Origin: Alphaproteobacteria bacterium
Lineage (GTDB): Bacteria; Pseudomonadota; Alphaproteobacteria; Rs-D84
Direction of reading: 5' to 3'
Assembly: GCA_017535105.1 (NCBI GenBank)
Contig: JAFXUI010000004.1
Span: 35,952-99,951 of the forward strand
DNA length: 64,000 nucleotides
In this document: in pieces, positions 9,407 to 61,009 of the stretch
Layout: every line of letters starts with the position of its first letter
How positions within the stretch are numbered: position 1 is the first letter of the stretch
Program-made: the position numbers and the translations under genes
The notes under the pieces: generated by a model
The model's input: only the letters and a program-made list of their open reading frames with translations
Database searches by the model: none
What the model was told of the DNA's origin: nothing

Positions 9407-9495
9407 TGTCTGTTTTTTGGCACTAAATGCAAAATATTGTTTTTAATATTGCTGATTTTATGATAAAATTAGTAAAACGGGAAAGGGGATTTTGT

Positions 9496-12360
9496 ATGAG
9501 GAAGTTATTCGTTTCTGCATTTTTAATTTGTGGAATTATTGCATGCGCAGATGCTGCGCCACGTGCGGGTGGGGCTTCGGCACGCAGTGGTGGCAGTACG
9601 GCCAGTGCACCAAGTACAACATCGGGTGGTGCAACGGTTGGACGCAGTGCAGTCAAGGCGCGTAGCGCAACACCGGCCGCATCGGTTAAGACAGCGGCAC
9701 CATCGCAAATGACGGTTGCGGCACGCAGTGCAACATCACAGCCAAAGGTTTCGGCGGCGCGTGCGGCAACAACGCAAAAGGTTATTAATTCTGGAACTAA
9801 AATTGCCGGTGCGACAAAAAATACCGCGGTGAATGAAGCATGCCAGGAAAAATATTTCGGCTGTATGGATGCGTTTTGTATGTTGGAAAATACCAACGGT
9901 GGACGTTGCACATGCAGTGACAGAAATGCTGAATTGGACGAAGTTTTATCAGAAATTGAACGTTTGGATCAGCAGTCATATCAAATGGCGACATTTGGTG
10001 TTGAACAAATTGAAATGGGTGAAAATGCCGATGCCGCGATTGCCAAGGCAAATGCAATTGCAGATGATGCGATGGTAAACCTTAGTCGTTCTGAAACATC
10101 AAAAAGAAAAGCGCGTGCAGCACTTGATTTATCAATGTGGGATCACCCAATTGATTTAGATGATGACGATGTGTTTTCGGAATCTTCTTCGTTGAATTAT
10201 GATATTGCTGGCAAGACAGGTGATGCATTACAGAGTGCGGCAAGCAATTTGTGTGTCGCACAAATCCCAGAATGTTCTGCGGATGCGGCAATGTTGCAGT
10301 TGATATATGTACAAAAGATTAAGTCTGATTGTAATGCGTATGAAAACAGTTTAAAGCAACAAAAGAATGCAAGCCAAAACAAATTGTCTGCGGCCCAGAA
10401 AGCATTGCGCGAAGCGGCATTGGAACAAATGCAAAACGCAAACAAATATGATTTGGGTCAGTGTACAGTTCAATTTAAAAAATGTATGCAAACAACTGGT
10501 GGCTGTGGCGAAGATTTTTCGGCATGTGCTTTTGTTTCCGCGATGGACAACACAAACGTGAATAAATCGTCTTCTAAAAAGACAACAAATTATTCTATCC
10601 AGGGTGCTGTTTCGACAATCGACATATCTGCATCAACGTATGATACATTGATGGCGAAAAAGCCATTGTGCGAAGGTATCACGAAATCATGTGCGGCGGT
10701 CGCAGATCAAGTGTGGGATACGTTCCTGCGTGAAATTGCACCAACGATTAAGTCTGCGGAAATTATTGCCGAAGATAATGCACGTCAAAATTGTATTGGT
10801 ACAATCGCGTCCTGTTTCCAAAAGGCATGTAAAGATACAATTGATCCGAATGACCCCGAAGGTTCATACGATATGTGTTTGACACAACCATCGTCAATGT
10901 TGAACGTGTGTAAGATTCCATTGAACGCATGCGGTATTGATGCGACTTCGGTTTCCAAGGCGGAAAAGTCAGACATTTGGAATTTCGTTGTTGCACGTTT
11001 GGCATCAATGCGTGTTGATTCTTGTACCAAGGCGGTTAAATCATGTCTGCAATCCGATGATCGTTGTGGCAAAGATTATGGCAACTGCGTTGGACTTGAT
11101 ATGGACACAATCGTTGCGATGTGCCCAACCGAAAAGTTAGTCGGTTGCCAAGAAAACGGCAAGAAAAAATCTTTATCGGAATTGTCTGATTTGGTAATGG
11201 GTATATTCTTGGATATTGACAACACTATGTTGACCCAATGTCAGAATGCTGTGACGACCAAGATGTTAGAGGTCTGTGGTGCGACCGATACCTGTGCCGC
11301 ATTTGACGACGACGATGTGATTGGTACAGACTCGCTGATGTCATACAAAGACAGCGATGGTAATTATATTATCGAAGGTTTGGTTTCGTTCGGTAATGTA
11401 AAGATAAGCGAAACAACCGATATGTCTAATCCGGACGATGTAAAGTTTGGTCGGTACGAGGTTAATATCGCCGATTACCGTAGCCATTTGAACGATACAA
11501 ATGCGACGGTTCAACGTGTTGTTTCGTCTTTACAGTCTGCGGCGAACAAGATAAATCAAAAGATTGCGATTTTGTCCCAAGATCCACAAATCAAAATGTG
11601 TGTCGAAGGGCGCGATATGTCGCAAATTCGTACACGTGCGGACGGCGCAACAAATCGTACATCGGCACGCTATCCGAACTTGCTGGATTCATCAATCATG
11701 GCAATTATCAATTCCGGTCTGGAACGCGCAAATCAAAACTATACTAAAAAGTATAACAAGTTGGTTGGCGAGGCAATGAATTCACAAGACAGTGAAATGA
11801 AATCGGTATTGTGCGCGGCCATGGCATCGTCAAAACCGTCTTGTGTGGAATATGCCGCAACAGGAAATGGTGGAAGTATTTGTACAAAATATGAAACAAA
11901 TAGTTTTGACAATGTGTTCACAGCAACCGATAAATCGGGTATAAGTGTTGGTTCTGGGGATGCATATGCAACGCGTTATGTGATATCGGGTGCCAGTATG
12001 GAAAAATTGGCATTGGTACAACAGTCGGGACATTCGGAATTTGTCCAGACAGACGACTATGGAAATATGTTGGGTCGTATCGCAATGGCGGCTACATATT
12101 CACCAGCGGACAGAACTTGCACAATAAACACACAATCAACAATGTGTAAAGAAGCAGAATCAGTGATAACGACAGATACAGAAACTAAGTGTGGGTATGG
12201 TGGCGTATCGTTCCTTGGTGGTGGCGGTTGTCGTGGTGCCGGTGGAATCTTGAATATTGGTGGTGGCAGAAAAACAACATCGGTTACGCAAAACTATTAT
12301 GGAACATCGTGTAAAGAGTTTGGTGAGCCGGTTGTAACCACAAATGTAATTGAAATGTAA
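9496..12360 (+). CDS. Secreted Cys-rich protein, CMDxFC family paralog A
   Basis: Signal peptide MRKLFVSAFLICGIIACADA; Ala/Arg/Ser-rich linker; CQEKYFGCMDAFC...GGRCTCS; collinear similarity to 51858..54479. Confidence 0.85.
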   Translation: MRKLFVSAFLICGIIACADAAPRAGGASARSGGSTASAPSTTSGGATVGRSAVKARSATPAASVKTAAPSQMTVAARSATSQPKVSAARAATTQKVINSGTKIAGATKNTAVNEACQEKYFGCMDAFCMLENTNGGRCTCSDRNAELDEVLSEIERLDQQSYQMATFGVEQIEMGENADAAIAKANAIADDAMVNLSRSETSKRKARAALDLSMWDHPIDLDDDDVFSESSSLNYDIAGKTGDALQSAASNLCVAQIPECSADAAMLQLIYVQKIKSDCNAYENSLKQQKNASQNKLSAAQKALREAALEQMQNANKYDLGQCTVQFKKCMQTTGGCGEDFSACAFVSAMDNTNVNKSSSKKTTNYSIQGAVSTIDISASTYDTLMAKKPLCEGITKSCAAVADQVWDTFLREIAPTIKSAEIIAEDNARQNCIGTIASCFQKACKDTIDPNDPEGSYDMCLTQPSSMLNVCKIPLNACGIDATSVSKAEKSDIWNFVVARLASMRVDSCTKAVKSCLQSDDRCGKDYGNCVGLDMDTIVAMCPTEKLVGCQENGKKKSLSELSDLVMGIFLDIDNTMLTQCQNAVTTKMLEVCGATDTCAAFDDDDVIGTDSLMSYKDSDGNYIIEGLVSFGNVKISETTDMSNPDDVKFGRYEVNIADYRSHLNDTNATVQRVVSSLQSAANKINQKIAILSQDPQIKMCVEGRDMSQIRTRADGATNRTSARYPNLLDSSIMAIINSGLERANQNYTKKYNKLVGEAMNSQDSEMKSVLCAAMASSKPSCVEYAATGNGGSICTKYETNSFDNVFTATDKSGISVGSGDAYATRYVISGASMEKLALVQQSGHSEFVQTDDYGNMLGRIAMAATYSPADRTCTINTQSTMCKEAESVITTDTETKCGYGGVSFLGGGGCRGAGGILNIGGGRKTTSVTQNYYGTSCKEFGEPVVTTNVIEM

Positions 12361-27003: not shown

Positions 27004-27032
27004 AAAACCGCCCAAATGGGCGGTTCTTTTTT
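27002..27032. terminator. Bidirectional intrinsic terminator
   Basis: AAAAAACCGCCC-AAAT-GGGCGGTTCTTTTT. Confidence 0.8.
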
Positions 27033-28110
27033 ATTTCACACGTATCGGAATAATTGTTTGGTCTTTGATAGCATCCAGTGGCGCATATTGAAAACGAACA
27101 CTGGCAAAATCAATGTCGTTCATATCTATGGAGCGCACTGTGCGATTATACATTGTGTGATAGTACACAATTTTATTGCCCAAATCGGTCGCGATTGTCC
27201 ACTGGGTCGCGGACGGCATATTGTTTGTTGCCTTGCCAGAATCAAATTCAACACTCAAAGGAACGTCCAAATTGTTCAACAAGTGAAAAGCCTTCATTAC
27301 CGCGTCATAGCCGTTTGGTTGTTGAATTGAATAATTACTTAACAATGCTGCACGCACAAATCGTGATGGTGGTGTAAAGTCGCCGGGCAGCCCCAACATA
27401 CCACTGTCGGAACCATACGCGCGCAGGGTGATGTTGCCAACTTTCTTTGGCTCTGAGGTTCCAGGTTTCAGATTGATATAATTGTTTAGGTTCATTACGT
27501 GCCACGGATAGTTCGGTGAATTTGCAATTGCACCAACAACGCTGTCGTAAAAATGCGCCGCGCCATCAACAAATTCCAAAATCACTTGTTTGCCGGTTGC
27601 ATCGGTTATGCGCCAGTGTACCGTTGACGCCGATGGATCAACATTTGTGACGGTTATGTATTTGATTGCTTCTTGGATTTCATCGATTGTGGCAAAGCGC
27701 GATAACATCCATGCGACTAACTCGAAATCAGCAATACTGTCAGATTTTCTGGTGGGGTTGTATGTCGGGTATTTGCCATAGTCCGGGAAATAAAACAGCC
27801 CGGCGGAAAGACCCGCTTCATTCGTGCCGTCGATTACAAAGTCTGGCGTTTGTACCGCAATGCCGACATAGCCATATACGGATGTGAATTTTAATCCGTC
27901 CATTTTACCGCCCGGGGTCAATGATGTCTGGGTATGGCCACGTGGCGCGATAACGTACATGCTGTTCATTTCGTCACCATGCCAATCAACAGTTCGCGCA
28001 ACAATCGTATCGCCATCGCGCGCGTGCAGTGTCAGCCCCGTACATGCGTGACCGTGATTTACGATTCCAAGTATCCCCGCAAGAGTAATTGCAAATAGTT
28101 TTATATTCAT
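27031..28110 (-). CDS. Choloylglycine hydrolase / penicillin V acylase family Ntn-hydrolase, exported
   Basis: Signal peptide then nucleophile CTG; ARTVDW, DGTNEAGL, NSP, GLPGDFTPPSRFVRA. Confidence 0.92.
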   Translation of the reverse strand: MNIKLFAITLAGILGIVNHGHACTGLTLHARDGDTIVARTVDWHGDEMNSMYVIAPRGHTQTSLTPGGKMDGLKFTSVYGYVGIAVQTPDFVIDGTNEAGLSAGLFYFPDYGKYPTYNPTRKSDSIADFELVAWMLSRFATIDEIQEAIKYITVTNVDPSASTVHWRITDATGKQVILEFVDGAAHFYDSVVGAIANSPNYPWHVMNLNNYINLKPGTSEPKKVGNITLRAYGSDSGMLGLPGDFTPPSRFVRAALLSNYSIQQPNGYDAVMKAFHLLNNLDVPLSVEFDSGKATNNMPSATQWTIATDLGNKIVYYHTMYNRTVRSIDMNDIDFASVRFQYAPLDAIKDQTIIPIRVK

Positions 28111-32569: not shown

Positions 32570-35500
32570 ATGTCTATTACCACCAAAATACTGTCAAATT
32601 CTTTAATCGGCTTGGTTTCCGTATTGCCTGCATTGCTTGTTATGCCGGCGGTTGCTGGTGATCCGTATATGGCTGGTGACGCGTTTGTGTTCGGCGATAT
32701 CGTTGTGGACGGAACAAATGGCACATTGATTGATAATATGGCGATGGGTGGTCGTCGTATGACGGGTGATGGTGTACACAATGGATATAATAATGTGTTT
32801 CCTAATTACAGTATGTATGGCAGTTCAATTGAGGTTCAGACACCAACATCGGGAACAAATCTTTTGTATGTTGGACCAGTGTCTTTGACGCTTGGTGATT
32901 TGGGTGAAAAGGCTTTCAGATATAATTTCCAAAAGAACGATAACGATATTGATATGGCAGCCACTGGCGGTATTGTATGGAACGAAGAAATTGGTAATGG
33001 TACAGACGGACAGTTGTTGGCTAAGGTTGCCTCTGTGACGGAAGATTTGGTGGCCGCGGGTCAATCTGTTGGTGGTGTATATCTGTATTCGCGTAAGGGC
33101 GATGGCAGTAAATCTGGTACATTGTCATTGGCAAAAACAAATGCACAAATTGATGGTGCGACAGTAAACGCAAAATCAATTTCTGTTGCCGGAAATTCAA
33201 AGGTTGATATCGTAAAACAAGATACAAGTGTACTTAACACGGCGGAAAGATTTTATACGTCGGCTGGCGATATTGCAAATGCCTCTGGCATTACAACATT
33301 AAGCGCGACAGACACAATCAATATTGATGGTTCGCAAGTGAATGTTGGTGCGGGCACAACATTGGCATTGAATTCTGGTAATGATGCCGAAGACGGTACG
33401 ACATTCCAAAATCTTGCCAGTGATACAGGTGCGTTGTCTGTCATAGATGGTTCTGTGACAACAAGTGGTAAATCATTAGTGTTTGCGGATAATACATCGT
33501 CATCACATGGTGCGGGGCTTTATTATAAAACTACGGCAAGTGGTGTAGCTTCGTCAGTCGTGTTGAATTCTGATTCAGTAACGTTCAGCAATAATACATC
33601 AGATTATTCTGCCAGCAGTGGCGGTGCATTGTTTAATTCTGGTGGTGATGTTTCGATTCTGGGTGATACAAGTACGTTTACGGAAAACAAAACCTTGGGA
33701 ACAGGATCAAAGTTGTACAAGCGTGGTGGTGGTGCGATTGCCAACCAGTCTTATGAATCTGAAGCCGCTGCAAATAAGGTCGGTTTGAATGCCACAATGG
33801 TTATTGGCGATGCCAACAGCGTGAATTCATTTACCAGCAACACTTCGTCTATGAACGGTGGTGCGATTATGAATCGTGCAGTTGATACCGATGGCGATGC
33901 ATCATTGACAATCAATGGAACAACAGCCTTTACTGGAAATTCCGCAGCAGGAAAGGGTGGTGCAATTTATAATATGCGCGAGTTGTTGACGTTTGAACCA
34001 GGTGAACACGTTGCGGATGTCACAATCAATGGTGTGTCAAATTTCGCAAATAATACAGCTGGTCAAACTGGAGGTGCTATTTATAACTCTGGTAATATGA
34101 CAATAGCTAATTCAACATTTACTGGAAACAGAACGACATCTATAAACTTTGCGACTGATGCAGAAGACCCGACAAATGATCCAGCACAAGGTGGCGCTAT
34201 CTATAATTCTGGAAGTGATGTTGTTTGGGAATGGGACTCTGATGCTAAATTCTCATACAATGGTGTGTTGAATATTTCTAATACGAATTTTGGTCTTAAA
34301 GAAGACGTGGCATCTGGAAACCAATCTTTACAAGGTGGTGCGATTGCTAATGCCAGAGCTAACGGTTTAGATGGTGAGGTGACTTTAACCAATACAAACT
34401 TCTATAATAACAAGGCATATGCCGATACAGATGACTCTGATGGGTATACGTCATCTTTGGGTGGTGCTATATGGAATCAGGGTGTTATGACCATCAATGG
34501 TGATACAGAATTTAAGGGTAATACAGCCGAAGGTTATAATGTAGAAGGTGGTGCGATTTACAATAGTGGCACATTAACTATTAATGATATGGCTGTATTT
34601 GATTCCAACACTGCTACAGATATAAATTCTGGTAATGGCGCGTACGGTGGTGCCATATCAAATGCTTATAACAAGAGTATTACATTCAAAGATGAGGTAA
34701 CATTTACAAACAATAAAGCACTGAGTAGCGCTGATAAAGGAACACAGGGTGGTGCTATTTATAATGCTGACGATGCAACTGTGACATTTGAAAAAGCTGC
34801 ATTATTCAGTGGTAATGAAGCAACCTATGGTGGTGCATTGTTTAATGATGATGGCGCAACTATAAATTTAATAGATGCTTCGTTTACAAATAATACTGCA
34901 GGTGATGAAGGTGGTGCAATATTCCAGATATTTGGTACAACAAACATCAATGCAGTTGATAGTGATGTTTTGTTCAGTGGTAATACGGCAAATGGTGTCG
35001 CAAATGATATCACTAACTATGGTGGTACAATAAATCTTGATGCGGCTGCTGGGCGCACAATTTCGATGAACGGCGGTATAACGGGTCATTCGTCTTTGGC
35101 TGGCATGAGCGAGATTAATATTGTTGGCACAGGAACGGTTGAAACGTCGACAATCAAAAATCAGACTGTTGCGGTTGACGCTGGTGAATTGCACTTGGTC
35201 AATGGTGCGGCTGATGGTTCGAACTTGTTGGGTTCAACAATCACGGTTGCAGATGGTGCAACAATCAACACGATTGATAACCTGATTAACGATTATACTG
35301 GTGTGATTACTCTGAATGACGGTGCGCGTGTCAAAGGTGAATTGAACTTTATCGACGGAACCGCCGACAGATACAGTGGTGACAGTGGTACAATATATTA
35401 CCAAGTTGCAAAATTGCTTGGCAATATCGGTTCTGGAACGAAAACAATTCAGATTGCCGAAGCTGGTTCAACAATTGATGTTGCTGGGGCGTCTGCATTA

Positions 35501-45788: not shown

Positions 45789-46520
45789 TTAGTTGTTGTT
45801 CAACACGATGTTATTTGCGGCACGCGCATTTTGTGCGGCGGTCACCAATGTTTGAAAATAATTATTTGCCTGGGTGTCGGTGATGTATTCCGAATCGGAA
45901 TTATCGTCCCAATCGGTCGCGCCATTTAAGACAATCAATGTAGCATTGTCACTATTACACTGGATAGCATATTCAGATGAGTTATAACGTTTGCCATAGC
46001 ATTTGCCATTTAATACATCAACATATCCGCGTTCCGCTAAATCAGAACAATGTTGAGTTGTCGTGGTAAATACACCGTTTTCAACAATGTTGTCTTCGTT
46101 CACATCTTCAATTGCGCCATTACACCAGACCTTTACATAACTGCCATTCACAGAAACCATTGCACCGTTAGATTTTGTTTTGCGGGCACCAAAGCAATCA
46201 CCATTCAATTTTGCCAAATCAAAATCTTGGGAATTTACAACGCTTGTGTTTGCAATGTCGTTGCGTTCAAGTGCAACGCGTTCATCAATGTTTGGATCTT
46301 TTACCGCGTCCGGACAAACATACTTTTTTCCCCAACAATATGATGTTGCGTCCCAACTGCCAGAATCAGATGTGTTATAAAAATAACCAATGCCCATATT
46401 GGAATAACATGTAGCGGGACTGGGGTAGCAAATATTGTCATATTTCCACCATGGCGTTGCAGCATTTGCACCACCAAATAACAACAAAGAAACAACAGAA
46501 AATAAAAACGTTCTTGTCAT
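45789..46520 (-). CDS. Secreted Cys-rich hypothetical protein
   Basis: Signal peptide MTRTFLFSVVSLLLFGGANA; multiple Cys; downstream of CMDxFC paralog B. Confidence 0.75.
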   Translation of the reverse strand: MTRTFLFSVVSLLLFGGANAATPWWKYDNICYPSPATCYSNMGIGYFYNTSDSGSWDATSYCWGKKYVCPDAVKDPNIDERVALERNDIANTSVVNSQDFDLAKLNGDCFGARKTKSNGAMVSVNGSYVKVWCNGAIEDVNEDNIVENGVFTTTTQHCSDLAERGYVDVLNGKCYGKRYNSSEYAIQCNSDNATLIVLNGATDWDDNSDSEYITDTQANNYFQTLVTAAQNARAANNIVLNNN

Positions 46521-46600
46521 ATTCTTTTTCTCGCTTCCTTTTATTTTATCAGAAATCCGCCCCCCAGGCAAGTTATGATTGTTCAATATTACAGATATGC

Positions 46601-49225
46601 CTAGTTGCCGCTTTGTTCAGAAGATGTGATTGTCGTTGTGTTGCCGTAATAGTTTGCTGCCGCGGTTGGATCTGCACAATACCCCCATTTTTTGTTTGCA
46701 CCAGTTTCGTTATAGAAACGTGGCCATATTGTAAGATTACTTGCAGATGTGTTTTGGTTTTGTTGTGTTGTTTCCTGGTACGGTGTTGCAACCCAATAGC
46801 CGCCCAAACGTTCGCACTCTGTTTTAAGAGATGCCGACATTTCAGAACGAACAGAATCCATTGTTGTATTGACGGCCTGTAATACTTCGTCTGATATGGG
46901 TGTTGACGTGCCGTCGATGACAGAATCTGTTTCAGATGGACGCATACATGTTTGCATTGCATAACGTGTGACAGACTGGTACAAACTGCCTACGTAATCG
47001 GAGCAGGTATCGTCCATTGTTTTGGATATTGGGCAATACCCATTACCAGGACATGTTGCCCCAGCTGGACATGGCAAACAAGCGTTGCCGACACTGGGGC
47101 CAGCCCCGCAAGCATTGCCTTGCATTTGCGCCAGTTCGCCTGTTGCGTAAAAATCTGTGCAGCCTTCCCGTCCTGGTAAATCACAGTCAGACAGGTAAGA
47201 ATTTTGATAGCATTCGATATACTTTACAGCATAGCCAGTCGTTTGCAATGGACGTGCGTTTTCGTTTTCATAAACGTTACATACATAACCAGATCGTACA
47301 TCTTTGGAGTATTTTGCATCAGCTGCGTGGATGGCACTGCCATACGATAATTGTTGACGTCTGTTGACGGGCTGGTTCTGACACTGCCAGATTGTTGCGT
47401 ATTGGCGTTCGCCCGGTGCATACACACGACATGCGTATGGATATAAATGCAGGGTATCGTTGGATGGTACAGCGCACATGGTGTGTACATAGTCTTTCAG
47501 TGTGTTAAGGCAGTCTTGGGAAATCTTTTGACTGGTTATATCGTGCAACATTGTATCAATCAGTTGTTGCATACCAGCAGTACCACCGCCGTACAAGTTG
47601 CTGCATGTGGAAAGTTTTTCACGACACAATTGTTCTGATAATTCTAATTGCGAACCCAACAAAAGTTGTTCTTTGGTGTTGGTAAAATCACGCAAAGATG
47701 CGGTTTGGGAATCATAACATTTGTTCACAACATCTAAACATTCGTCTTTGACTTGGCGAATACGAGTATGTTGCCCCTGGTATATTTCGGTGATTGACTG
47801 GCGCATAAATTCGTCCCAGACTTCGTCCGCCAAATCTTGACAGGTCGAAAGACTACCTTCGGCAAAGACACGCATACGATTTAGTTCCGCAACCAGCATA
47901 CGATTTGTTTGATTGGTCAATACGTCACCAGACAAAGATACCATCTTTTCCAATTGATAAAAGTTAGATGAATATATCGGTTCACCAGTAACCTTGTTCA
48001 AGTACAAGCCCGATATGTCAAGACAATGTACATAGTCGCTACCGCATGCCGTATCGGCGGTAACATCCGCGCGTACCTTGGCTACACAGTCGTTAATGGA
48101 TGTTGAATTATGTGCATTGTAATTTTCAAGACGAGCTGTTTGCATTTGGCGTTCTGTTTCACGTATGGTGCCTTGGGTATTGTTTTTCTGTTTATCAAGT
48201 GTGTTTGCCAATAATGAGCAATCATTTTCGATATACATAGCATAGGCAGAGATTACCATGTTAAACGTTGAGGCGTTTCCGCACTGGTCAGATACCAAAT
48301 CTGCACATTGAGAATGAACCGCGTTGTACAATGCTTCGCCAGTCAGGTTCGCAAGATTTACACCCGATGCCAAATCAGTGGTTGCCCAAATTGCATTTAT
48401 GTCGCCCGCGATATCCAATGTTCCAGATGTGGACAGCGAACGTGCTTTTGTGCTTGCCAACACTGTACTGATTCCTTCAAGTTGTTGCGCAGAATTAGAT
48501 GTGTCTTTGCTAGTTGTGGCAGCATATTCCCCACGGGACGCTGTTACCATGGCGTTTACTTCGGCGGCGGTTTTTGGTATGGCTTCGATATTCAGATCTT
48601 GGAAATCCTGAATTTGATCAGCGGCATCGCTTAGCGCAAGTTGTTTCTTTTTGATTTCGGTTAAGCGCGATGAGCAAATACAACGGCGATAAGTATCGTT
48701 TGCGGTGGCACAAAACTGATCCATACACGTAAAGTATGCGTCGTGGCAAGAATTATATCCCGCACTGTATGATTGAGTCATTGCGCCAGCGCGCGCCATA
48801 TTTGTTTTTGCGCCTGTTGTTGCGGCGCGTGATACGTTGGTTTTTGAGGTGGACTTGGTTGCGCTGCGCGTTCCAGATGTACCCGATTTTTTTACCGTTG
48901 TTTGTGTAGTTGTGCCAGGACGTGTAGTGGTTATGCGTTGTGTTGTTGTGCGCGATATTGTTTGTGGGGCAGGTTTTCGCGATACAGTTGCGCGTTGCAC
49001 ACTGTCGTTTGAACGTGTTGTTACATTACGTGTTGTTGTGGTACCCGAATTACGTGTGGTGTTTGTTACTGCGTTACCACGTGATGCAGTACTGCGGGTT
49101 TGGGATTGTGCCACAACGACAGTGTTATTGCCTCGTGCGTTGGTTTTTGTTGTAGCACGAGCAGCAGCATCGGCGCCGCCGATGCACAAGAACCATACCG
49201 CTAAAAAGGGCAGTATTCTTCTCAT
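46601..49225 (-). CDS. Secreted Cys-rich protein, CMDxFC family paralog B
   Basis: Signal peptide; Thr/Arg/Ser-rich linker; CHDAYFTCMDQFC...RRCICS; GEALY, YIENDC, CGSDYVHC. Confidence 0.85.
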   Translation of the reverse strand: MRRILPFLAVWFLCIGGADAAARATTKTNARGNNTVVVAQSQTRSTASRGNAVTNTTRNSGTTTTRNVTTRSNDSVQRATVSRKPAPQTISRTTTQRITTTRPGTTTQTTVKKSGTSGTRSATKSTSKTNVSRAATTGAKTNMARAGAMTQSYSAGYNSCHDAYFTCMDQFCATANDTYRRCICSSRLTEIKKKQLALSDAADQIQDFQDLNIEAIPKTAAEVNAMVTASRGEYAATTSKDTSNSAQQLEGISTVLASTKARSLSTSGTLDIAGDINAIWATTDLASGVNLANLTGEALYNAVHSQCADLVSDQCGNASTFNMVISAYAMYIENDCSLLANTLDKQKNNTQGTIRETERQMQTARLENYNAHNSTSINDCVAKVRADVTADTACGSDYVHCLDISGLYLNKVTGEPIYSSNFYQLEKMVSLSGDVLTNQTNRMLVAELNRMRVFAEGSLSTCQDLADEVWDEFMRQSITEIYQGQHTRIRQVKDECLDVVNKCYDSQTASLRDFTNTKEQLLLGSQLELSEQLCREKLSTCSNLYGGGTAGMQQLIDTMLHDITSQKISQDCLNTLKDYVHTMCAVPSNDTLHLYPYACRVYAPGERQYATIWQCQNQPVNRRQQLSYGSAIHAADAKYSKDVRSGYVCNVYENENARPLQTTGYAVKYIECYQNSYLSDCDLPGREGCTDFYATGELAQMQGNACGAGPSVGNACLPCPAGATCPGNGYCPISKTMDDTCSDYVGSLYQSVTRYAMQTCMRPSETDSVIDGTSTPISDEVLQAVNTTMDSVRSEMSASLKTECERLGGYWVATPYQETTQQNQNTSASNLTIWPRFYNETGANKKWGYCADPTAAANYYGNTTTITSSEQSGN

Positions 49226-49325
49226 CCTTACTTTCTGATAAAAATGTTAGCAAAAAAGATTATTTTGGGGCAAGTGCTATTTACGTAAAAAAATAAAAAA
49301 ATCCGCATTTTTTGCGGACTATTTT

Positions 49326-49574
49326 TTATGCATGATTTTGGTCGGTTGGCGCGTGACTTCGTTCAACGAAAGTTATGCGTCCTTTGTCCAAATCATATGG
49401 TGTCATTTCGACATTAACGTGTTCACCAACATTGACCCAAATGCGGTTTTTACGCATCTTGCCACATACTGTTGCCAGAATTTCGTGTCCGTTTTCGAGT
49501 TTTACGCGAAACATAGTGTTCGGTAACTTGTCTTCGACAACACCACTGAATGTAATTACATCATCTTTTGCCAT
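49326..49574 (-). CDS. infA: Translation initiation factor IF-1
   Basis: MAKDDVI...[14 protein letters not shown]...GKMRKN...PYDLDKGRI. Confidence 0.97.
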
Positions 49575-49717
49575 ATTTTGCCTTTATGTATTTTCAGATT
49601 TTTTATGGCAGATATGATATTGCGATGAACAAAAAATTGCAAGATTTTTTTAATGCCGCTTGCACGTGGGGGTAATATATGATAAAATTAAACATAATAA
49701 TGTAGGGGTGTGCCAAT

Positions 49718-51829
49718 ATGAAAATCAGGATTTTTGCCTTGTTGTTTTGCATCGTGCCGGCGGTTGCGGGTGCGATTTCTGTGCAAACTAAAAATACGCA
49801 AGCGGGGGTAAGTCGTGTGTCGATGGCGGTGGCGCCAAGTGCCGGCATTAAAAGTGTGAAAATTGCCGAAGATGCTGTTGCGCCGGAAACGTTTACGTTA
49901 ACAATGGGTGGAAATGAACACGTTGTAACCCCAACAACAAATAAACCAAAAAAATCTGGTGATTGTCGCAAAAGTTATAGAGCGTGTATGGACGAGTTTT
50001 GTTTGTTGGACGAAAGTGAGGGCGAACGTTGCGCGTGTTCATCAAACATCAACAAATCAAAAAGTTTGATAAAAGAAATTCAAGATATCCAAGCAGAAGC
50101 GGATAAGTTGTATACCGAAGGTGTCGAACGTGAACAGCTGGGGGCCAAGGCCAGATTGGTGTTCGGTGAATCTGAATCTGCGAAAAAAGCATCACGTGCA
50201 TCGGGTTTAAGTTTTACACAATGGTTAAACGGTGATGACGAAGATGGTTTGTCTGCGGACGACGATATTGGTGATGGATTGTACGCGATGGCGGCGGAAT
50301 ATTGTGCCGATGAACTGGACGCGTGTGGTGACAAGGCAGATATGGAAGAAATGTTATATGGTCGTCAAATTGTCGCAGATTGCAAGGCGTTTGATTCATA
50401 CTTGGTTGATCAAAAGGCAAACGCGTTGGCAAATAAACGTACGGCTGAATCTGCGGTGCGCAAAGCGCGTTTGGAAATGTTGGACACAACAAACAAATAC
50501 AATCGTGGCGAATGTTTGTTGGCATATCGTGCGTGTATTTCGGACAAGGGTGGTTGTGGTTCTAACTTTGAGAATTGTTTAGATGCGGATTTGTTATCAC
50601 GTCGTGCAAATGCGTGTGAAAACGTGTTGGATCAATGTATGGCGGTGCGTAATGATGTTCTGTCTGATTGGGAGATGGAGGCAGAAAGCATCTTGGTTGA
50701 TGCGACAAAATATGCCGATAAATATGCGCGTCAGACTTGTTTGGCACGAATCCAAGACTGTTTGGAAATTGGCTGTTCGACCGAAACGAATTCGGCGTGT
50801 TTAACGAACGTCAATGTTGCGGCGGGTGTGTGTCCGGTGATTGATGAATGTAACGAAATGATTCCGGGTATCAAGTCGGTTGTGAACGACAAATTGGGTT
50901 ATTTGCGGACTCAGTTTTGCCAGAACGATGTTGATAAATGTTTGCGTAATAAATGCGGTGAAAACTTTACTGCGCCAGAATGTGTTGGCAAAAAGACATC
51001 TGAAATTACGGCATTGTGTCCACAAACAATGTTCCCATCGTGTAAGAACGAAAATCAATTTGACATAATTGTCCAAGCGGCTTTGTTGCAGATGGACTAT
51101 CAAATGATGCAGGGTTGCTTGAATCATTTTGGCGAAGAATTGGGCAAGGTTTGTGGTACGGATATGGCGTGCTTGCCATCTGATTCAACGGTTGAATCAT
51201 TAAAGAAGTTACCAAATTCAGAGGCGAAAATGATAGCGTTGCGTCAAACGGTGCGTGATAATGCGTCCGCGGCGGTTGATGAATTCTTTAAGCAGTTTGA
51301 AAAAGATATTACGGTTGCGGCATGTCGCGACAGTCAAAAACCGGCGGGTCGCAGAAGTTTGGGCGACAGTGTGTTTAACAGTGCAAAGTTAATCGCTCAT
51401 ATCAGTGCGGAAAATCGTGCGTTGCGTGCGTTGGAATCAAAAATTGCAGAATTGTCGCGTGAACAAGATATCGAAACCGCGCGCCAAGCATGCTTGACAA
51501 CGTACAAGGTTGAAAAGAAAGAAACAGGAAAGAAGAATTACAGTTATATCCGCAGTGTTTCGTTCGAACCAGACCTGCGTAATTGCCACGTGTGCCGTAT
51601 GCAACAAGTTTGCGAAACGGGTGGCGAAACCAAAGCAACATCGGCGTTGAAATCGGCGGCGGGTGGTTTGTCGGCGGGTGCTGCGGCGGGTACGATGGTG
51701 AATCCGGGTTGGGGTACAGTCATCGGTGGCGTTGTTGGTGCGGTTGGTGCCGGCGTTATGGGTGCGGTATCTGGCGGCGAAGAAGAATTCTGTCAAGAAA
51801 TTGAATCTTGCGAAGATGTAAATATGTAA
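49718..51829 (+). CDS. Secreted Cys-rich protein, CMDxFC family paralog C, with C-terminal glycine zipper
   Basis: Signal peptide; CRKSYRACMDEFC...RCACS; NKYNRGEC; AAGGLSAGAAAGTMVNPGWGTVIGGVVGAVGAG. Confidence 0.85.
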   Translation: MKIRIFALLFCIVPAVAGAISVQTKNTQAGVSRVSMAVAPSAGIKSVKIAEDAVAPETFTLTMGGNEHVVTPTTNKPKKSGDCRKSYRACMDEFCLLDESEGERCACSSNINKSKSLIKEIQDIQAEADKLYTEGVEREQLGAKARLVFGESESAKKASRASGLSFTQWLNGDDEDGLSADDDIGDGLYAMAAEYCADELDACGDKADMEEMLYGRQIVADCKAFDSYLVDQKANALANKRTAESAVRKARLEMLDTTNKYNRGECLLAYRACISDKGGCGSNFENCLDADLLSRRANACENVLDQCMAVRNDVLSDWEMEAESILVDATKYADKYARQTCLARIQDCLEIGCSTETNSACLTNVNVAAGVCPVIDECNEMIPGIKSVVNDKLGYLRTQFCQNDVDKCLRNKCGENFTAPECVGKKTSEITALCPQTMFPSCKNENQFDIIVQAALLQMDYQMMQGCLNHFGEELGKVCGTDMACLPSDSTVESLKKLPNSEAKMIALRQTVRDNASAAVDEFFKQFEKDITVAACRDSQKPAGRRSLGDSVFNSAKLIAHISAENRALRALESKIAELSREQDIETARQACLTTYKVEKKETGKKNYSYIRSVSFEPDLRNCHVCRMQQVCETGGETKATSALKSAAGGLSAGAAAGTMVNPGWGTVIGGVVGAVGAGVMGAVSGGEEEFCQEIESCEDVNM

Positions 51830-51857
51830 GTTTTTCAGAGTACAGGGGAGAGAAAAA

Positions 51858-54479
51858 ATGATGTCACGTGCATTATTCGTTGTTATTATTGGCGCGTTGT
51901 GTGCGGGTGGTGCAGATGCCGCGGTTGCGAAAAAGCAATCGGCAATACAAAATGGCACCACTATTCGTGCGCGGGTTGAGGCCAAGGGTGTTTATAACCA
52001 AGAATGCTATGATGCATATTATGGTTGTATGGATCAATTCTGTATTGCTGAAAATGAAAATGGTGGCAGTTGTTCGTGCAGTGATAAAAATGCCGAATAT
52101 GAAAGTCAGTTGGCGGATATCCAAAAGATTTTGAATGAAGCAAATCGTATCAGCACCGAAGAAGTTGAAAAGATTCAAGCGGGCGCAAATGCCGACATTA
52201 TATTTAATGGCACACGTCAATATGACGAATATGGAAACATTGTGTCAGTTGATGCGCAAAATAAATCTGCGCAACAATCAAAAGAAAAAAAACGTGCCGA
52301 TTTGTTGTCGTTGTGGGACAGCAACTTTGATGACGAAGACGAAATCGACACAATAGCAGATAAAACTGGCAACGCATTGTTCAGTGCGGCACATAATTTA
52401 TGTGTTGCACAAATGGACGATGCGTGTGATAAAGACATAAACTTTTTACACCAGGTTTATGCCCGCCAAATTACATCCGACTGTAAAGCGTTTGAAAACA
52501 GTATTGCAAAACAAAAATCAAATGCCGATTTGGCACTGGCAAATGCCAAGGCCGATGTACGCAGTGCGTTGCGTGACAGTCTGAACGAGGCGAATAAGTA
52601 CGATTTGGGTCAGTGTATGGTTGAGTTTAAGAAATGTATGTTGACCGAAGACGCCTGTGGTAAAGATTGGACGAATTGTGTATCCACTGTTGCGTCCACG
52701 AACATGCAAAACAATGCGGCGGTCAGTACCGCCAAAACCAAGGCGGCAACGGTTGCTACATATGATATTACCGCACCAACAATGGAAATTTTATCAACCA
52801 AACGTACAATTTGTGAACGTGTGTTGAACAGTTGTGTTGCGGTGCGTGATATGGTTTGGCCGGCATTTTTGAAAGAAGCCGCACCAACAATTCGTTTGGC
52901 GGAAAGCAATGCGGAATCTAAATTCCGTCAGTCTTGTTTGTCCACCATTTCAAGTTGTATCCAAAAAGCGTGTAAAGATGATATAGCGGGCAAGGGTGTT
53001 GCAACAATGGACGCGTGTTTATCACGTCCGGATATGGCGCGCAGTTTTTGTAAGGTTGAAATAGACCCATGTGAACGTATGGAACCGCTGATTTGGGGTT
53101 ATGTGACGGATAAGTTGGCAGCAATGCGTGTTGACGCGTGTACCGAAGAAGTCAAAGCATGCTTTACCGACGACAACCGTTGTGGCGCAGACTTTTCTAA
53201 ATGTATCGGTATGGATTACAACTATATCCACGACATTTGCCCGATTGACAAGTTAGTGGTGTGCAAGGCGAACAACCCGAAATTCAGTATGACAGATTTG
53301 GATTCTATGTTGATGGGATTGTATCTGAATATAGACAATTCGGCACTGGAAACATGTCAGAATTTGGCGGAAGCCAAGATGTTGGAAATCTGTGGTTCAA
53401 CAACCGATTGTAATAAGTTTGCCGCAGACGAAACAATGGGTACGGGCAGTTTGCAGTATCAAAAAGATGGTGCAATTCATAGATTGACTGGTATGATTTC
53501 GTTCGGCAAGGTAAATGTTGGAATGGATAAAGAAAACGCAGGTTTGATTGATATACAAGATTATGTAAATTTCTTGTCCGAGGCAAAAGTTGTGCCACGG
53601 GAATATGGTGCGGTTGCAGATACTGTATTATATGAATTGGAAAACATACAAGGAACAATAAATCGTGTTATTACGATGATTGAGCAAGATCCGGAAATTC
53701 AATTCTGTGTAAATGGACGCGATTTAAGTCAGATAAATGGTAAATCTGGTTCCAAGACAACAGGTCGTTTTCCAAACCTGTTAAACCAAGTAAAAATGCA
53801 AATTGCAATTGCGGCATTGCGTCAGGCACAAGATAATTATAATAAAAAATATAACGAATACTTGGGCAAGGCAATGGATGGCGCAACAATTGATATGGCG
53901 AATTTAATGTGCAATAAGTTGCCGGCAGCGAATGGTACGGCTGCAGGTATTTCTGCCCCGGAATTGAATACAAGTGTTATTCCAATGGGTGCGTTGGTTG
54001 CAGAATTTGGTGGGGTGTCAAATTCGTCTTTAGCAGCAGGCGGGACCCACTCTTCACAAAGGTTGGGCGGTGCACGTATGTCCACAGCCAGTGGGGCTGC
54101 AGCGGGTGGTTCCGATGGTGGTGAAACAAGCACAATTACAAGTGGTGTGATTTCATCTGGTCTTTCCAAGTTCCAGGCGATGGGCGGAAAATTTGCAATG
54201 TCGTTTAATCCTAATCCAACGGCGATGATAGCGGATGCAACAGTGAAGGCGGTTGTTGCATTAGCCTCTGATACATATTCGTCCGAATTTGATGGAGGAA
54301 CTCGTGAAATGTGGTCAACATTTAACCGCGATACTCGTGTGTGTCATGTGTGTACATCAACTGTTACACAAGATTGCCATAATACTGGCAGTCGCGGATT
54401 CCTTGGACTTTGGGATTCTCGTGGTGTTTCTTGCACATCAAATGAACCGGTTGAAAAATGTGAAGATATACAAATGTAA
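51858..54479 (+). CDS. Secreted Cys-rich protein, CMDxFC family paralog D
   Basis: Signal peptide; CYDAYYGCMDQFC...SCSCS; ANKYDLGQC, LAxMRVDxC and DPxIxxCVxGRD shared with paralog A. Confidence 0.85.
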   Translation: MMSRALFVVIIGALCAGGADAAVAKKQSAIQNGTTIRARVEAKGVYNQECYDAYYGCMDQFCIAENENGGSCSCSDKNAEYESQLADIQKILNEANRISTEEVEKIQAGANADIIFNGTRQYDEYGNIVSVDAQNKSAQQSKEKKRADLLSLWDSNFDDEDEIDTIADKTGNALFSAAHNLCVAQMDDACDKDINFLHQVYARQITSDCKAFENSIAKQKSNADLALANAKADVRSALRDSLNEANKYDLGQCMVEFKKCMLTEDACGKDWTNCVSTVASTNMQNNAAVSTAKTKAATVATYDITAPTMEILSTKRTICERVLNSCVAVRDMVWPAFLKEAAPTIRLAESNAESKFRQSCLSTISSCIQKACKDDIAGKGVATMDACLSRPDMARSFCKVEIDPCERMEPLIWGYVTDKLAAMRVDACTEEVKACFTDDNRCGADFSKCIGMDYNYIHDICPIDKLVVCKANNPKFSMTDLDSMLMGLYLNIDNSALETCQNLAEAKMLEICGSTTDCNKFAADETMGTGSLQYQKDGAIHRLTGMISFGKVNVGMDKENAGLIDIQDYVNFLSEAKVVPREYGAVADTVLYELENIQGTINRVITMIEQDPEIQFCVNGRDLSQINGKSGSKTTGRFPNLLNQVKMQIAIAALRQAQDNYNKKYNEYLGKAMDGATIDMANLMCNKLPAANGTAAGISAPELNTSVIPMGALVAEFGGVSNSSLAAGGTHSSQRLGGARMSTASGAAAGGSDGGETSTITSGVISSGLSKFQAMGGKFAMSFNPNPTAMIADATVKAVVALASDTYSSEFDGGTREMWSTFNRDTRVCHVCTSTVTQDCHNTGSRGFLGLWDSRGVSCTSNEPVEKCEDIQM

Positions 54480-54491
54480 TAGGCGCGAAAA

Positions 54492-55379
54492 ATGAACCCG
54501 AACGAGATTATTGAAAACACAACCGAGATTTTACAGAATCCAAAAGAATTATTAAATGTTGAGGTGTCCAGTATAGATGCCGCTATACAATCGCTGATTC
54601 AGTCGGCGATTGATTTCGGTATCAAAATGCTGGTTGCAATTTTAATCTTTTGTGCGGGGATGTGGCTTGCCAATCGTATTACGCGTTCATTAAAGGCTAT
54701 TATGGAACGCCGTAAATTTGACCCGTCATTAAAATCTTTCTTGGCGTCTTTTGTAAATATCGTATTGAAAGTATTTGTGTTCATTATCGTACTTACCACC
54801 GTTGGTGTACAAATGACGTCCATTGTTGCGGTGTTGGGCGCGGCATCATTGGCGGTTGGTTTGGCACTTCAGGGGACATTACAAAACTTTGCAGGCGGAA
54901 TAATTATTTTAATGCTTAAACCGTTTCGGGTCGGGGACGCAATTGAAACCGCCAGTGGCAAGGTTGGTGTAGTTAAAAAAATTATGATGTTCACAACCGA
55001 ACTTCATACGTTTGATAACCAGGTTCTGTTTTTGCCGAATGGTGCGTTGGCAAACGGAATTATTACTAATATGTCCAAAGAGGGTGACCGCCGTACCGAT
55101 ATGAACATAAGTATTTCGTATGGTGACGATGTTGATGTCGCGCGCAAGGCGATATTGGAAGTGCTGAAAAAAGACAAGCGTATCATGAATAAACCAGAGC
55201 CGATTGTGTATGTGTCAAACTTGGGCGACAGTGCGGTTGTTTTGTCGGTGCGTTTTTGGACGTCATATGATGATATGTTTGCGACACGTGGCGATGTGTT
55301 GGAAAAGTTATATGTGGCTTTGCCAAAAAAGAAAATTCATTTCCCATATCCACAAATGGATGTTCACGTGAAAAAATAA
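54492..55379 (+). CDS. mscS: Small-conductance mechanosensitive channel
   Basis: LGAASLAVGLALQGTLQNFAGG, KPFRVGD, PNG, FPYPQ. Confidence 0.93.
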   Translation: MNPNEIIENTTEILQNPKELLNVEVSSIDAAIQSLIQSAIDFGIKMLVAILIFCAGMWLANRITRSLKAIMERRKFDPSLKSFLASFVNIVLKVFVFIIVLTTVGVQMTSIVAVLGAASLAVGLALQGTLQNFAGGIIILMLKPFRVGDAIETASGKVGVVKKIMMFTTELHTFDNQVLFLPNGALANGIITNMSKEGDRRTDMNISISYGDDVDVARKAILEVLKKDKRIMNKPEPIVYVSNLGDSAVVLSVRFWTSYDDMFATRGDVLEKLYVALPKKKIHFPYPQMDVHVKK

Positions 55380-55403
55380 TTTGCCCGCGTTCGCGGTTTT
55401 TTT

Positions 55404-55511
55404 GTCATTCCCGCGCAGGCGGGAATCTATTGCCACGCAGTGCCCACATGTTCGCCGAACAATCGGCGAATTGCCTGCGACGCATTGGATACCCACCTTC
55501 GTGGGTATGAC
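55404..55511 (+). repeat. REP/RPE/dRS3-like palindromic element, copy 1
   Basis: GTCATTCCCGCGCAGGCGGGAATC...GATACCCACCTTCGTGGGTATGAC. Confidence 0.85.
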
Positions 55512-60184: not shown

Positions 60185-61009
60185 ATGACTTGGACAATAC
60201 TGATCTTGTTATTGGCAATTGCGTTGTTCTTGTTCGGCGGTATGCTGATTAAGGCTGATGCAAAGAAACCAACAATGGGTCTTATGATTTGTAAAAAATC
60301 AATCAAATTGGTTGCTATTGTTTTGATTGCTGGCTGTGTCACACGCTTGTACACACCATACTATCTTACAAATGTCAACCCTGTTATCGTGAAAGATATG
60401 ATAACTGCTATGCAGGCGCAAGAACAGGTTGAAAAGAACAAAGCCGTTCGTGCATACGTTCGTTCAAACGCAGCAAAGATGATGGCTGATGCCCCAATTT
60501 TGGGTAATCGTGATGCCAAGAAAACAATCTTTGTTTGGACAGACTTCAGCTGCCCATTCTGCCGCCGTGTTCATGGCGAATTGGCACGTGTTTTGGATGA
60601 ACGTGACGATGTTCGCGTAGTTATCAAGAACTTCTCGATTCACGGCGCATTGTCCGATGGTCCAGCAAAGGCTGCAATTGCTGCAAAAATGCAAGATGCA
60701 GACAAAGCTGCTGTTTTTGTTGACATGATGATGACACGTGACTTTTACAGCCAAGAAGATATGAAAGATCAATCGAAATTGGCGGGCAAGGTCGAAGCAA
60801 ACATCATGAAGATGGCAAAAGAAGCTGGTTTGGATACAGACAAGCTGAAAGCCGACATGAAGAACGAAATTGTTTCTCGTGAATTGGCAAATGTTCGTGA
60901 TTTGGCACAACGTTTTGAAATCAACGGTACACCATTCTTGGTTATCGGTGACGAAGCGTTCCCAGGTGCAATTCCATATGAACAAATCATGAAAGCATTG
61001 GATAAATAA
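60185..61009 (+). CDS. Membrane-anchored DsbA/Com1-like thiol-disulfide oxidoreductase
   Basis: Two N-terminal TM helices; DFSCPFC active site; INGTP cis-Pro; PGA. Confidence 0.9.
   Translation: MTWTILILLLAIALFLFGGMLIKADAKKPTMGLMICKKSIKLVAIVLIAGCVTRLYTPYYLTNVNPVIVKDMITAMQAQEQVEKNKAVRAYVRSNAAKMMADAPILGNRDAKKTIFVWTDFSCPFCRRVHGELARVLDERDDVRVVIKNFSIHGALSDGPAKAAIAAKMQDADKAAVFVDMMMTRDFYSQEDMKDQSKLAGKVEANIMKMAKEAGLDTDKLKADMKNEIVSRELANVRDLAQRFEINGTPFLVIGDEAFPGAIPYEQIMKALDK

What the first reader, a model, noticed from the sequence alone, without database searches (positions are those of the whole stretch)
51500..54479. Shared C-terminal beta-hairpin presenting a Gly/hydrophobic insert and ending in (I/V)-x-M
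Seen: paralogs A, C and D end with [FY]xxxxRxC (YSPADRTC, FEPDLRNC, FNRDTRVC), then a variable Gly-rich hydrophobic insert (GGVSFLGGGGCRGAGGILNIGGG; AAGGLSAGAAAG...GWGTVIGGVVGAVGAG; GSRGFLGLW), then a returning strand ending NVIEM, EDVNM or EDIQM. Established: Gly-rich hydrophobic loops clamped by disulfides occur in fusion loops and pore-forming hairpins, and GxxxG zippers occur in bacteriocin-like peptides. Inference: these tips are the membrane-inserting parts of the complex.
Basis: partly seen in the sequence, partly recalled or inferred. Interest (0 to 1): 0.75.

Follow-up and report, generated by a model that had tools for sequence, protein, structure and literature searches.

The report
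Disulfide-clamped C-terminal hairpin with hydrophobic tip
Three large exported, cysteine-rich proteins of a tiny-genome gut bacterium end in the same small disulfide-stapled beta-hairpin. Its tip carries a conserved greasy, glycine-rich loop that most likely grips a membrane, and the protein family has not been described in print.

Summary
Paralogs A (9427-12360), C (49718-51829) and D (51858-54479) all end in [FY]-x4-R-x-C, a Gly/hydrophobic insert, and a last strand ending (I/V)-x-M. AlphaFold models of C and D place the insert at the tip of a long beta-hairpin. The cysteines sit in register for two cross-strand disulfides.

The module is conserved well beyond chance. 118 of 120 D-like and 103 of 107 A-like homologs end in M. 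The C-type tail is single-copy in 169 of 171 sampled genomes of the bacterium's family. The organism is Candidatus Enterousia (order Rs-D84), with a 0.87 Mb genome.

The membrane reading is only partly supported:
- C's tip is a strongly conserved, TM-like glycine-zipper hairpin.
- More distant relatives carry two clearly TM-like segments at the same site.
- D's tip is a 12-residue basic-flanked G-F-L-G loop.
- A's tip is replaced by polar loops in 24 of 103 homologs.
- Nothing shows a complex, beyond C and D forming a conserved operon.

The Met is kept even where the chain continues past it, so it is probably structural, not a terminal signal.

This scan had already found the family, and the C/D module, on other genomes. 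My confidence in the membrane-anchor reading is about 0.5.

The parts
49718..51829 (+). Paralog C, 703 aa. It has a signal peptide, a Cys-rich helical body, and the C-terminal module with a glycine-zipper tip.
   Evidence: ORF. AlphaFold model with mean pLDDT 74.3. 66 distinct C-like orthologs sit directly upstream of D-like genes.
51542..51622 (+). C module, outgoing strands: beta1 is residues 609-617 and beta2 is residues 622-635. The stretch includes the [FY]-x4-R-x-C and C-H-x-C motifs, with Cys 623, 626 and 632.
   Evidence: DSSP strands with pLDDT 81-90. C50, C53 and C59 of the tail alignment are invariant.
51656..51775 (+). C tip, residues 647-686. Two Gly/Ala-rich hydrophobic segments are joined by a P-G-W-G turn, forming a glycine-zipper hairpin.
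   Evidence: pLDDT is below 50 with no secondary structure. Kyte-Doolittle reaches 1.76 over 19 residues. G76, G91, W92, G93, I96, G97 and G101 are invariant in 61 tails. Pfam glycine-zipper hits are below cut-off.
51782..51826 (+). C returning strand, residues 689-703, with Cys 692 and 698, ending V-N-M.
   Evidence: DSSP strand 689-702 with pLDDT 86. The pairs 632+692 and 626+698 have equal residue-number sums, so the cysteines face each other across the hairpin. This is an inference.
51858..54479 (+). Paralog D, 873 aa. It starts 28 nt after C and has the same architecture, with a short tip.
   Evidence: ORF. Model with mean pLDDT 78.7. More than 1500 homologs.
54042..54266 (+). D residues 729-803: a Gly/Ala/Ser-rich, indel-rich linker before the module.
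   Evidence: pLDDT is below 50 for 729-766 and 787-803. The stretch is absent or different in many orthologs.
54276..54386 (+). D module, outgoing strands, residues 807-843, with Cys 829, 832 and 840.
   Evidence: DSSP strands 807-811, 814-823 and 828-843 with pLDDT 83-87. The Cys are invariant.
54387..54422 (+). D tip, residues 844-855: a basic-flanked hydrophobic loop with core G-F-L-G-[IL]-[GW].
   Evidence: A loop in the model with pLDDT about 71. Among 132 tips of 18 residues, counts are G 126, F 122, L 117, G 132, I/L 130 and G/W 129.
54423..54476 (+). D returning strand, residues 856-873, with Cys 859 and 868, ending I-Q-M.
   Evidence: DSSP strands 856-861 and 865-872 with pLDDT 72-90. 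C859, C868, D870, I871 and M873 are invariant.
9427..12360 (+). Paralog A, 977 aa as an ORF. The probable start is at 9496. It lies outside the finding's coordinates.
12097..12357 (+). A module, residues 891-977. It runs from [FY]-x4-R-x-C, through a Cys-closed Gly-rich tip (about residues 922-949, bases 12190-12273), to the last strand from Cys 962, ending I-E-M.
   Evidence: Motif positions. All 103 A-like proteins ending in M fit the scaffold pattern, and 79 of the 103 keep the two tip Cys. No structure model was made.

Best explanation
A, C and D are Sec-exported, disulfide-rich, mostly helical proteins of a family restricted to the order Rs-D84 (Candidatus Enterousia and relatives). Each ends in a small beta module in which two long antiparallel strands are stapled by cross-strand disulfides. 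The loop between the strands is a cassette site that evolution has filled with different hydrophobic elements.

In C the cassette is a conserved glycine-zipper helical hairpin that embeds in a membrane and anchors the protein. In more distant relatives it is two full TM-like segments. In D and most A-like proteins it has shrunk to a short hydrophobic, glycine-rich loop. That loop at most dips into a membrane surface, or docks on an anchored partner.

The conserved (I/V)-x-M closes the last strand as a structural feature and is not a C-terminal sorting signal.

Shown: the motifs, their conservation, the hairpin in the models of C and D, the TM-like hydropathy, and the shared insertion site.

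Inferred: the disulfide pairing, actual membrane insertion, which membrane is involved, and any cooperation between C and D.
For: - The hairpin with the insert at its tip appears in two independent models.
- Cys positions are in register across the strands: C 632/692 and 626/698, D 840/859 and 832/868 (read).
- A DsbA gene lies in the window at 60185-61009.
- The tail Cys columns are at least 90% conserved in an 82-sequence alignment that spans A-, C- and D-like proteins.
- C and D tails are related in a profile-profile comparison (76% probability, E 2.2e-5).
- The C tip is as conserved as its scaffold. It is present once per genome in 169 of 171 sampled genomes of the family.
- The C tip is the only TM-like segment of C apart from the signal peptide.
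- Glycine-zipper families were hit in 30 to 43 of 61 C tails, with best E 8.4e-5. Two orthologous fragments carry precomputed PF13488 or PF13441.
- 22 of 141 family representatives have a TM-like segment in the last 220 residues, and 0 of 141 have one in the body.
- P0218, P0219, P0221, P0257 and P0260 keep the same outgoing-strand motif and the same last strand. Between them they hold 150-250 residues with two TM-like segments.
- The D tip core is nearly invariant and is flanked by Lys/Arg.
- Met is retained in 13 representatives where 1-30 further residues follow it. It is replaced by F, L or Y in 16 others.
Against: - No experiment, and no structure of the tip itself. AlphaFold leaves C's insert unmodelled.
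- The Pfam glycine-zipper hits are all below the curated cut-offs. For the window's C the score is 14.6 bits against 28.9.
- D's and A's tips are not TM-like.
- 24 of 103 A-like proteins have polar or charged tips, so membrane contact cannot be the common function of the module.
- The A tail is only weakly related to the D and C tails in tail-only profile comparisons (13% and 0.6% probability).
- The long Ala/Thr/Gly-rich linkers of the two-segment forms show no clear positive-inside pattern (read), so their topology is open.
- Glycine zippers also mediate helix packing outside membranes.
Confidence: 0.5

Rival explanations
1. The tips are protein-protein contact sites. The glycine zipper of C and the hydrophobic loops of D and A pack against each other or against other envelope proteins. 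They would build a disulfide-stiffened lattice in the periplasm or on the surface, with no lipid insertion.
For: C and D are a conserved operon (69 tandem pairs, median gap 21 nt), and both are core genes. Small-residue zippers are a general helix-packing device (established knowledge). The genome holds at least 12 paralogs of the family, which fits a structural assembly. The polar tips in 24 of 103 A-like proteins fit a variable interface better than lipid contact.
Against: TM-like hydropathy is confined to the tail region across the family, in 22 of 141 representatives against 0 of 141 for the body. Some relatives reach Kyte-Doolittle 2.3-3.1, which is hard to keep soluble. No interface has been shown.
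Confidence: 0.25
2. The module is a targeting or quality-control tag. The last strand ending hydrophobic-x-hydrophobic would be read by a PDZ protease or chaperone, or by the outer-membrane insertion machinery, and the inserts would be spacers.
For: The ending fits a hydrophobic-x-hydrophobic carboxy-terminal pattern. 46 of 141 representatives end in M, F, L or Y after the same Cys pattern. The genome encodes PDZ-domain proteins and BamA.
Against: Met is kept in 13 representatives where 1-30 residues follow it. 13 of 69 C-like proteins do not end in M, and most of these replace it with V and add about 12 residues. Positions -5 and -7 are acidic or Cys, not hydrophobic. The inserts themselves are under strong constraint.
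Confidence: 0.08
3. The inserts are low-complexity loops without a specific role, and the resemblance among A, C and D is only shared ancestry of the tail.
For: Gly/Ala/Ser-rich, indel-rich stretches are common in these proteins, for example D 729-803. A-type tips vary.
Against: The C tip has seven invariant and about 15 nearly invariant positions in 61 species-level orthologs. The D tip core is 89-100% conserved in 132 sequences.
Confidence: 0.04

Closest known systems
Glycine-zipper membrane hairpins (Pfam Gly-zipper_Omp PF13488, Gly-zipper_YMGG PF13441, Rick_17kDa_Anti / 'glycine zipper 2TM' PF05433; SlyB-type outer-membrane lipoproteins, recalled)
   Same: About 40 residues form two Gly/Ala-rich hydrophobic segments with G-x3-G spacing and a tight turn. 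Weak profile matches appear in many C orthologs, and two orthologous fragments carry these Pfam labels.
   Different: Here the element is inserted into the tip of a disulfide-stapled beta-hairpin at the C-terminus of a 700-aa helical protein. It does not follow a lipobox. Scores stay under Pfam's cut-offs. D and A lack it.
Disulfide-stabilised hydrophobic 'fusion loops' at beta-hairpin tips of class II viral fusion proteins and HAP2 (recalled, not tested by sequence)
   Same: A short Gly-plus-aromatic/aliphatic loop is held at the end of a long disulfide-clamped hairpin and flanked by polar or basic residues. This matches the D tip.
   Different: The body is all-helical with no beta-sandwich domains. 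Foldseek gave no match at E of 0.001 or better, either to solved structures or to viral models. There is no evidence of trimerisation or of fusion.
C-terminal beta-signal of outer-membrane barrel proteins, and hydrophobic-x-hydrophobic PDZ ligands
   Same: The last strand ends hydrophobic-x-(M/F/L/Y), often with Q at the penultimate position.
   Different: There is no barrel and no alternating hydrophobic pattern upstream. The Met is kept when it is not terminal.
Cysteine-rich envelope proteins of Chlamydia (OmcB/OmcA). This is the comparison made by earlier notes of this scan, and it is recalled.
   Same: Exported, Cys-rich, multi-paralog envelope proteins of a small-genome diderm. A Pmp-repeat autotransporter lies in the same window.
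   Different: No sequence-family match for A-D in Pfam or NCBIfam. The fold is helical. The C-terminal module has no counterpart that I know of.

Membership tests
Pfam glycine-zipper families (PF13488, PF13441, PF05433) | Score at or above the curated gathering cut-off | tested here: not met
   For the window's C tail, PF13441 scores 14.6 bits against a cut-off of 28.9 (E 0.028). Across 61 tails the best E is 8.4e-5 for PF13488. PF13488 hits 30 members, PF13441 hits 33 and PF05433 hits 6, all at E of 1 or less.
Pfam glycine-zipper families (PF13488, PF13441, PF05433) | Two hydrophobic Gly/Ala-rich segments with repeated G-x3-G and a short turn, about 40-45 residues | tested here: met
   C residues 647-686. 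Invariant Gly and Trp positions.
SlyB/Pcp-type glycine-zipper lipoproteins | N-terminal lipobox directly preceding the zipper | tested here: not met
   C has an A-x-A type signal peptide, and its zipper lies at residues 647-686 of 703.
Outer-membrane protein beta-signal | Terminal aromatic residue with hydrophobic residues at -3, -5, -7 and -9, at the end of a beta-barrel | tested here: not met
   The terminal residue is M, and positions -5 and -7 are acidic or Cys in C and D. No barrel appears in the models. Met persists when internal.
Class II fusion proteins / HAP2 | Three-domain beta-rich ectodomain with the loop at the tip of domain II | tested here: inconclusive
   The models are helical except for the small tail sheet. 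Foldseek gave no match at E of 0.001 or better in the PDB or viral libraries. The tail was not searched on its own.
Beta-barrel pore-forming toxins (Gly-rich stem hairpin) | Two amphipathic arms of about 10 or more alternating residues that can span a bilayer | tested here: not met
   The hydrophobic runs in the A tip are 4-5 residues per arm. The D tip is 12 residues in all.
Rs-D84 cysteine-rich helical envelope family (unnamed; this scan's earlier notes) | Signal peptide plus the N-terminal Cys signature and the ordered Cys ladder along a helical body | tested here: met
   The signature is present in A-D and in 12 ORFs of the genome. 978 clusters match at 50% identity. Matches occur in 198 of 201 genomes of the order and 4 of 401 of the class, all four in this order.

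The most novel reading that the evidence does not exclude
The module is not a self-anchor but an attack or attachment device. Enterousia is thought to live off other cells. On this reading it displays these disulfide-stiffened helical proteins on its surface, and their clamped hydrophobic tips (the D-type loop and the C-type zipper) insert into a partner cell's membrane. That would form or stabilise the intercellular junction through which the bacterium feeds. It would be a bacterial analogue of fusion-loop proteins, built on an unrelated fold.
Probability: 0.1. Interest if true: 0.85.

Novelty: new variant of a known kind. Interest (0 to 1): 0.55.

Why it matters
Rs-D84 bacteria are widespread in ruminant, horse, bird and human guts. 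They have genomes under 1 Mb, lack respiration and standard nutrient transporters, and are thought to depend on other cells (PMC12306168; abstract and passages read). In this genome the 12 family ORFs found sum to about 9,500 aa, which by my arithmetic is about 3% of the 0.87 Mb genome. The family has no Pfam, NCBIfam or PDB relative.

The C-terminal module is the only part of these proteins that points to a physical location, namely a membrane. It therefore gives a concrete handle for working out where they sit and what they build. The design itself is also unusual: a disulfide-stapled hairpin whose tip has been swapped between a short loop, a glycine-zipper hairpin and two TM-like segments. 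I know of no described precedent for it.

Tried and rejected
- **Family scans.** Pfam and NCBIfam scans of the whole proteins gave nothing significant.
- **Fold searches.** Foldseek of the D model against the PDB and viral libraries gave 0 matches at E of 0.001 or better. VIA-align of the C model against 48,161 chains gave only generic helical-bundle rows with Z of 8.9 or less, which is within the stated noise for helical models. The tail was barely tested. The ESM Atlas gave no usable hit.
- **Complex prediction.** C 600-703 with D 800-873 returned no answer (score 0.02 against a mark of 0.32, controls not run). This is no evidence either way.
- **RNA runs.** None was listed for 49600-54600.
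- **Promoter and terminator scans.** Over 49200-55500 the counts were not above shuffles, 18 against 14.0±3.6 and 11 against 8.1±3.0.
- **Stand-alone copies of the C tail.** A search among proteins of 54-174 aa found only 63-96% identical pieces, mostly from short contigs. I read these as gene fragments.
- **A's tail in the genus.** A single-sequence search found it in 11 of 31 genomes. The query is too weak to count absence.
- **Structure job.** The first alignment was too large and was replaced by an 82-row alignment.
- **Rejected idea: lipoproteins.** Only A has a lipobox-like I-I-A-C before the cleavage region, and D orthologs have no conserved Cys there.
- **Rejected idea: a free carboxylate on the final Met is essential.**
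- **Literature.** 'Enterousia' returned 16 papers, none on these proteins judging by title or abstract. 'Rs-D84' plus 'cysteine-rich' returned 0 papers. Subscription journals and reference 17 of PMC12306168 were not seen.

Full report
**What is there.** The window encodes four large paralogs with signal peptides and 34-41 cysteines each:
- A, 9427-12360 (+)
- B, 46601-49225 (-)
- C, 49718-51829 (+)
- D, 51858-54479 (+)

C's and D's tails lie inside the finding's coordinates. A's lies at 12097-12360. B ends differently and does not carry the module. Pfam and NCBIfam give no significant family for any of the four.

**Organism and family.** The window is part of an 869,733-base genome in six contigs, estimated 96% complete. 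Record titles of related loci name Candidatus Enterousia. PMC12306168 (abstract and passages read) places Enterousia in the uncultured order Rs-D84. It describes reduced genomes, fermentation only, no standard nutrient transporters, and a probable obligate symbiont or parasite lifestyle.

The family is large and order-specific.
- A profile of A-D finds 978 clusters at 50% identity with E of 0.001 or better.
- It finds matches in 198 of 201 sampled genomes of the order.
- In a class-wide sample it finds matches in 4 of 401 genomes, all of this order.
- The window's own genome has 12 ORFs with the N-terminal Cys signature. Only A, C and D end in M.

**Is the C-terminal pattern more than chance?** Yes.
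- In 33 D orthologs the five tail Cys, F822, R824, R827, D870, I871 and the last Met are invariant.
- 118 of 120 listed D homologs and 103 of 107 A homologs end in M.
- 35 of the best 150 family representatives end in M, and 34 of these have I/V/L/F at position -3.
- The background in this genome is 21 of 589 ORFs of 200 aa or more ending in M, three of them A, C and D.

**Structure.** AlphaFold with family alignments gives a mostly helical body and a small C-terminal sheet for both modelled proteins.
- D (mean pLDDT 78.7): strands 807-811, 814-823, 828-843, 856-861 and 865-872, with loop 844-855 between them at pLDDT about 71.
- C (mean pLDDT 74.3): strands 609-617, 622-635 and 689-702 at pLDDT 81-90. 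Residues 647-686 are below 50 with no secondary structure.

So the insert sits at the tip of a long hairpin in both models. The Cys positions are in register across the hairpin: C 632/692 and 626/698, D 840/859 and 832/868. This predicts two cross-strand disulfides. It is an inference from the models, made plausible by a DsbA gene at 60185-61009. Each tail has five Cys, so the fifth probably ties the module to the body. A was not modelled. No fold search gave a meaningful match.

**Are the three tails the same module?**
- C and D tails match in a profile-profile comparison over the outgoing strands (76% probability, E 2.2e-5).
- A against D is weak (13%, E 0.0022), and A against C is weaker (0.6%). 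Both align in the same register.
- In an 82-sequence alignment spanning the subfamilies, the columns of C829, C840 and C859 are at least 90% conserved.

I accept positional homology for all three, with less certainty for A.

**The tips.**

C type:
- The insert is as conserved as its scaffold. In 61 tails G76, G91, W92, G93, I96, G97 and G101 are invariant and about 15 more positions are nearly so.
- It is the only TM-like stretch of C besides the signal peptide (Kyte-Doolittle 1.76 over 19 residues).
- It gives sub-threshold hits to membrane glycine-zipper families: C19orf12 in 43 of 61 tails, P22_gp7 in 42, Bacteriocin_IIc in 38, Gly-zipper_YMGG in 33, Gly-zipper_Omp in 30 (best E 8.4e-5) and Rick_17kDa_Anti in 6.
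- The C-type tail occurs once per genome in 169 of 171 sampled genomes of the family and in 1 of 29 genomes of the order's other families.

D type:
- The tip is short. Among 132 tips of 18 residues the core reads G (126), F (122), L (117), G (132), I/L (130), G/W (129), flanked by Lys/Arg.
- It is not TM-like.

A type:
- All 103 proteins ending in M fit the scaffold.
- 79 keep a Cys-closed, Gly-rich tip with short hydrophobic runs. 24 have no tip Cys and mostly polar or charged inserts.

**Comparative evidence for a membrane role.**
- Among 141 representatives of 600 aa or more, 22 have a TM-like segment (Kyte-Doolittle 1.7 or higher over 19 residues) in the last 220 residues. None has one in the body.
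- Five distant members (P0218, P0219, P0221, P0257, P0260) keep the outgoing-strand motif and the last strand with its Cys pair and I-x-M. Between them they carry 150-250 residues with two TM-like segments and an Ala/Thr/Gly-rich linker.

The hairpin tip is therefore a site where membrane-type segments have repeatedly been placed. It applies to C and these relatives, not directly to D and A.

**The terminal Met.**
- By a pattern search, 30 of the 141 representatives end in M, 12 in F, 3 in L and 1 in Y after the same Cys pattern. 13 keep I-x-M but continue for 1-30 residues.
- Among 69 C-D tandem pairs, 13 C-like proteins do not end in M. Most of these replace it with V and add about 12 residues.

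The Met side chain, not a free carboxylate, is therefore what is conserved. I read it as the hydrophobic cap of the last strand. This weakens readings as a PDZ ligand or a barrel-type beta-signal.

**Context.**
- C and D form a conserved operon. There are 69 tandem pairs among 80 related loci, with a median gap of 21 nt, and both genes end in M in 54 pairs.
- The genome encodes BamA, LpxC, PDZ proteins, a secretin and two TolC-like proteins. It is therefore a diderm, and neither a periplasmic nor a surface location can be excluded.

**Verdict.**
- The module is a disulfide-clamped hairpin with a cassette tip.
- In C the tip is very probably a glycine-zipper membrane hairpin.
- In D and A it is at most a peripheral hydrophobic loop.
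- A 'complex' is not shown.

Earlier notes of this scan had already described the family and the C/D module on other genomes. New here are:
- the A-type member;
- the quantified tip conservation;
- the two-segment relatives at the same insertion site;
- the behaviour of the Met;
- the taxonomic spread of the C-type tail.

I found no paper describing these proteins in the two searches made.

Noticed in passing
window 13504-15531 (+): A 675-aa Cys-rich exported protein with no Pfam match. It carries two further glycine-zipper-like hydrophobic stretches, so such segments recur in other envelope proteins of this genome.
   Followed up: partly
window 15876-17783 (-): A 635-aa OmpA-domain protein with Gly-rich hydrophobic stretches and EGF-like Cys repeats.
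   Followed up: no
window 32570-38407 (+): A 1945-aa protein with Chlamydia Pmp repeats (E 6e-27) and a YadA-like membrane anchor. It is a trimeric-autotransporter-type adhesin in a 0.87 Mb genome.
   Followed up: no
window 23017-26505 (+): A 1162-aa protein with an ankyrin-repeat match, which may be a host- or partner-directed factor.
   Followed up: no
loci L011, L012, L019, L034, L041, L047, L048, L050, L058 (C-like genes): A subgroup of C-like proteins replaces the final Met by Val or Ile and adds an acidic extension of about 12 residues. It is a natural variant with which to test the role of the terminus.
   Followed up: partly
window 9496-9830 and 48800-49160: After the signal peptide, A and B carry basic Ser/Thr/Ala/Arg-rich low-complexity linkers of about 100 to 130 residues with short repeated units. 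C and D have much shorter ones.
   Followed up: no
window 27031-28110 (-): A choloylglycine (bile-salt) hydrolase family gene (E 1e-58), which fits a gut habitat.
   Followed up: no
window 45789-46586 (-): A 265-aa exported Cys-rich ORF directly downstream of B, with no Pfam or NCBIfam match.
   Followed up: no
family representatives P0206, P0221: These carry uncharged Ala/Thr/Gly/Ser tracts of 60-150 residues between the two hydrophobic segments of the tail insert. Their nature and topology are unexplained.
   Followed up: no
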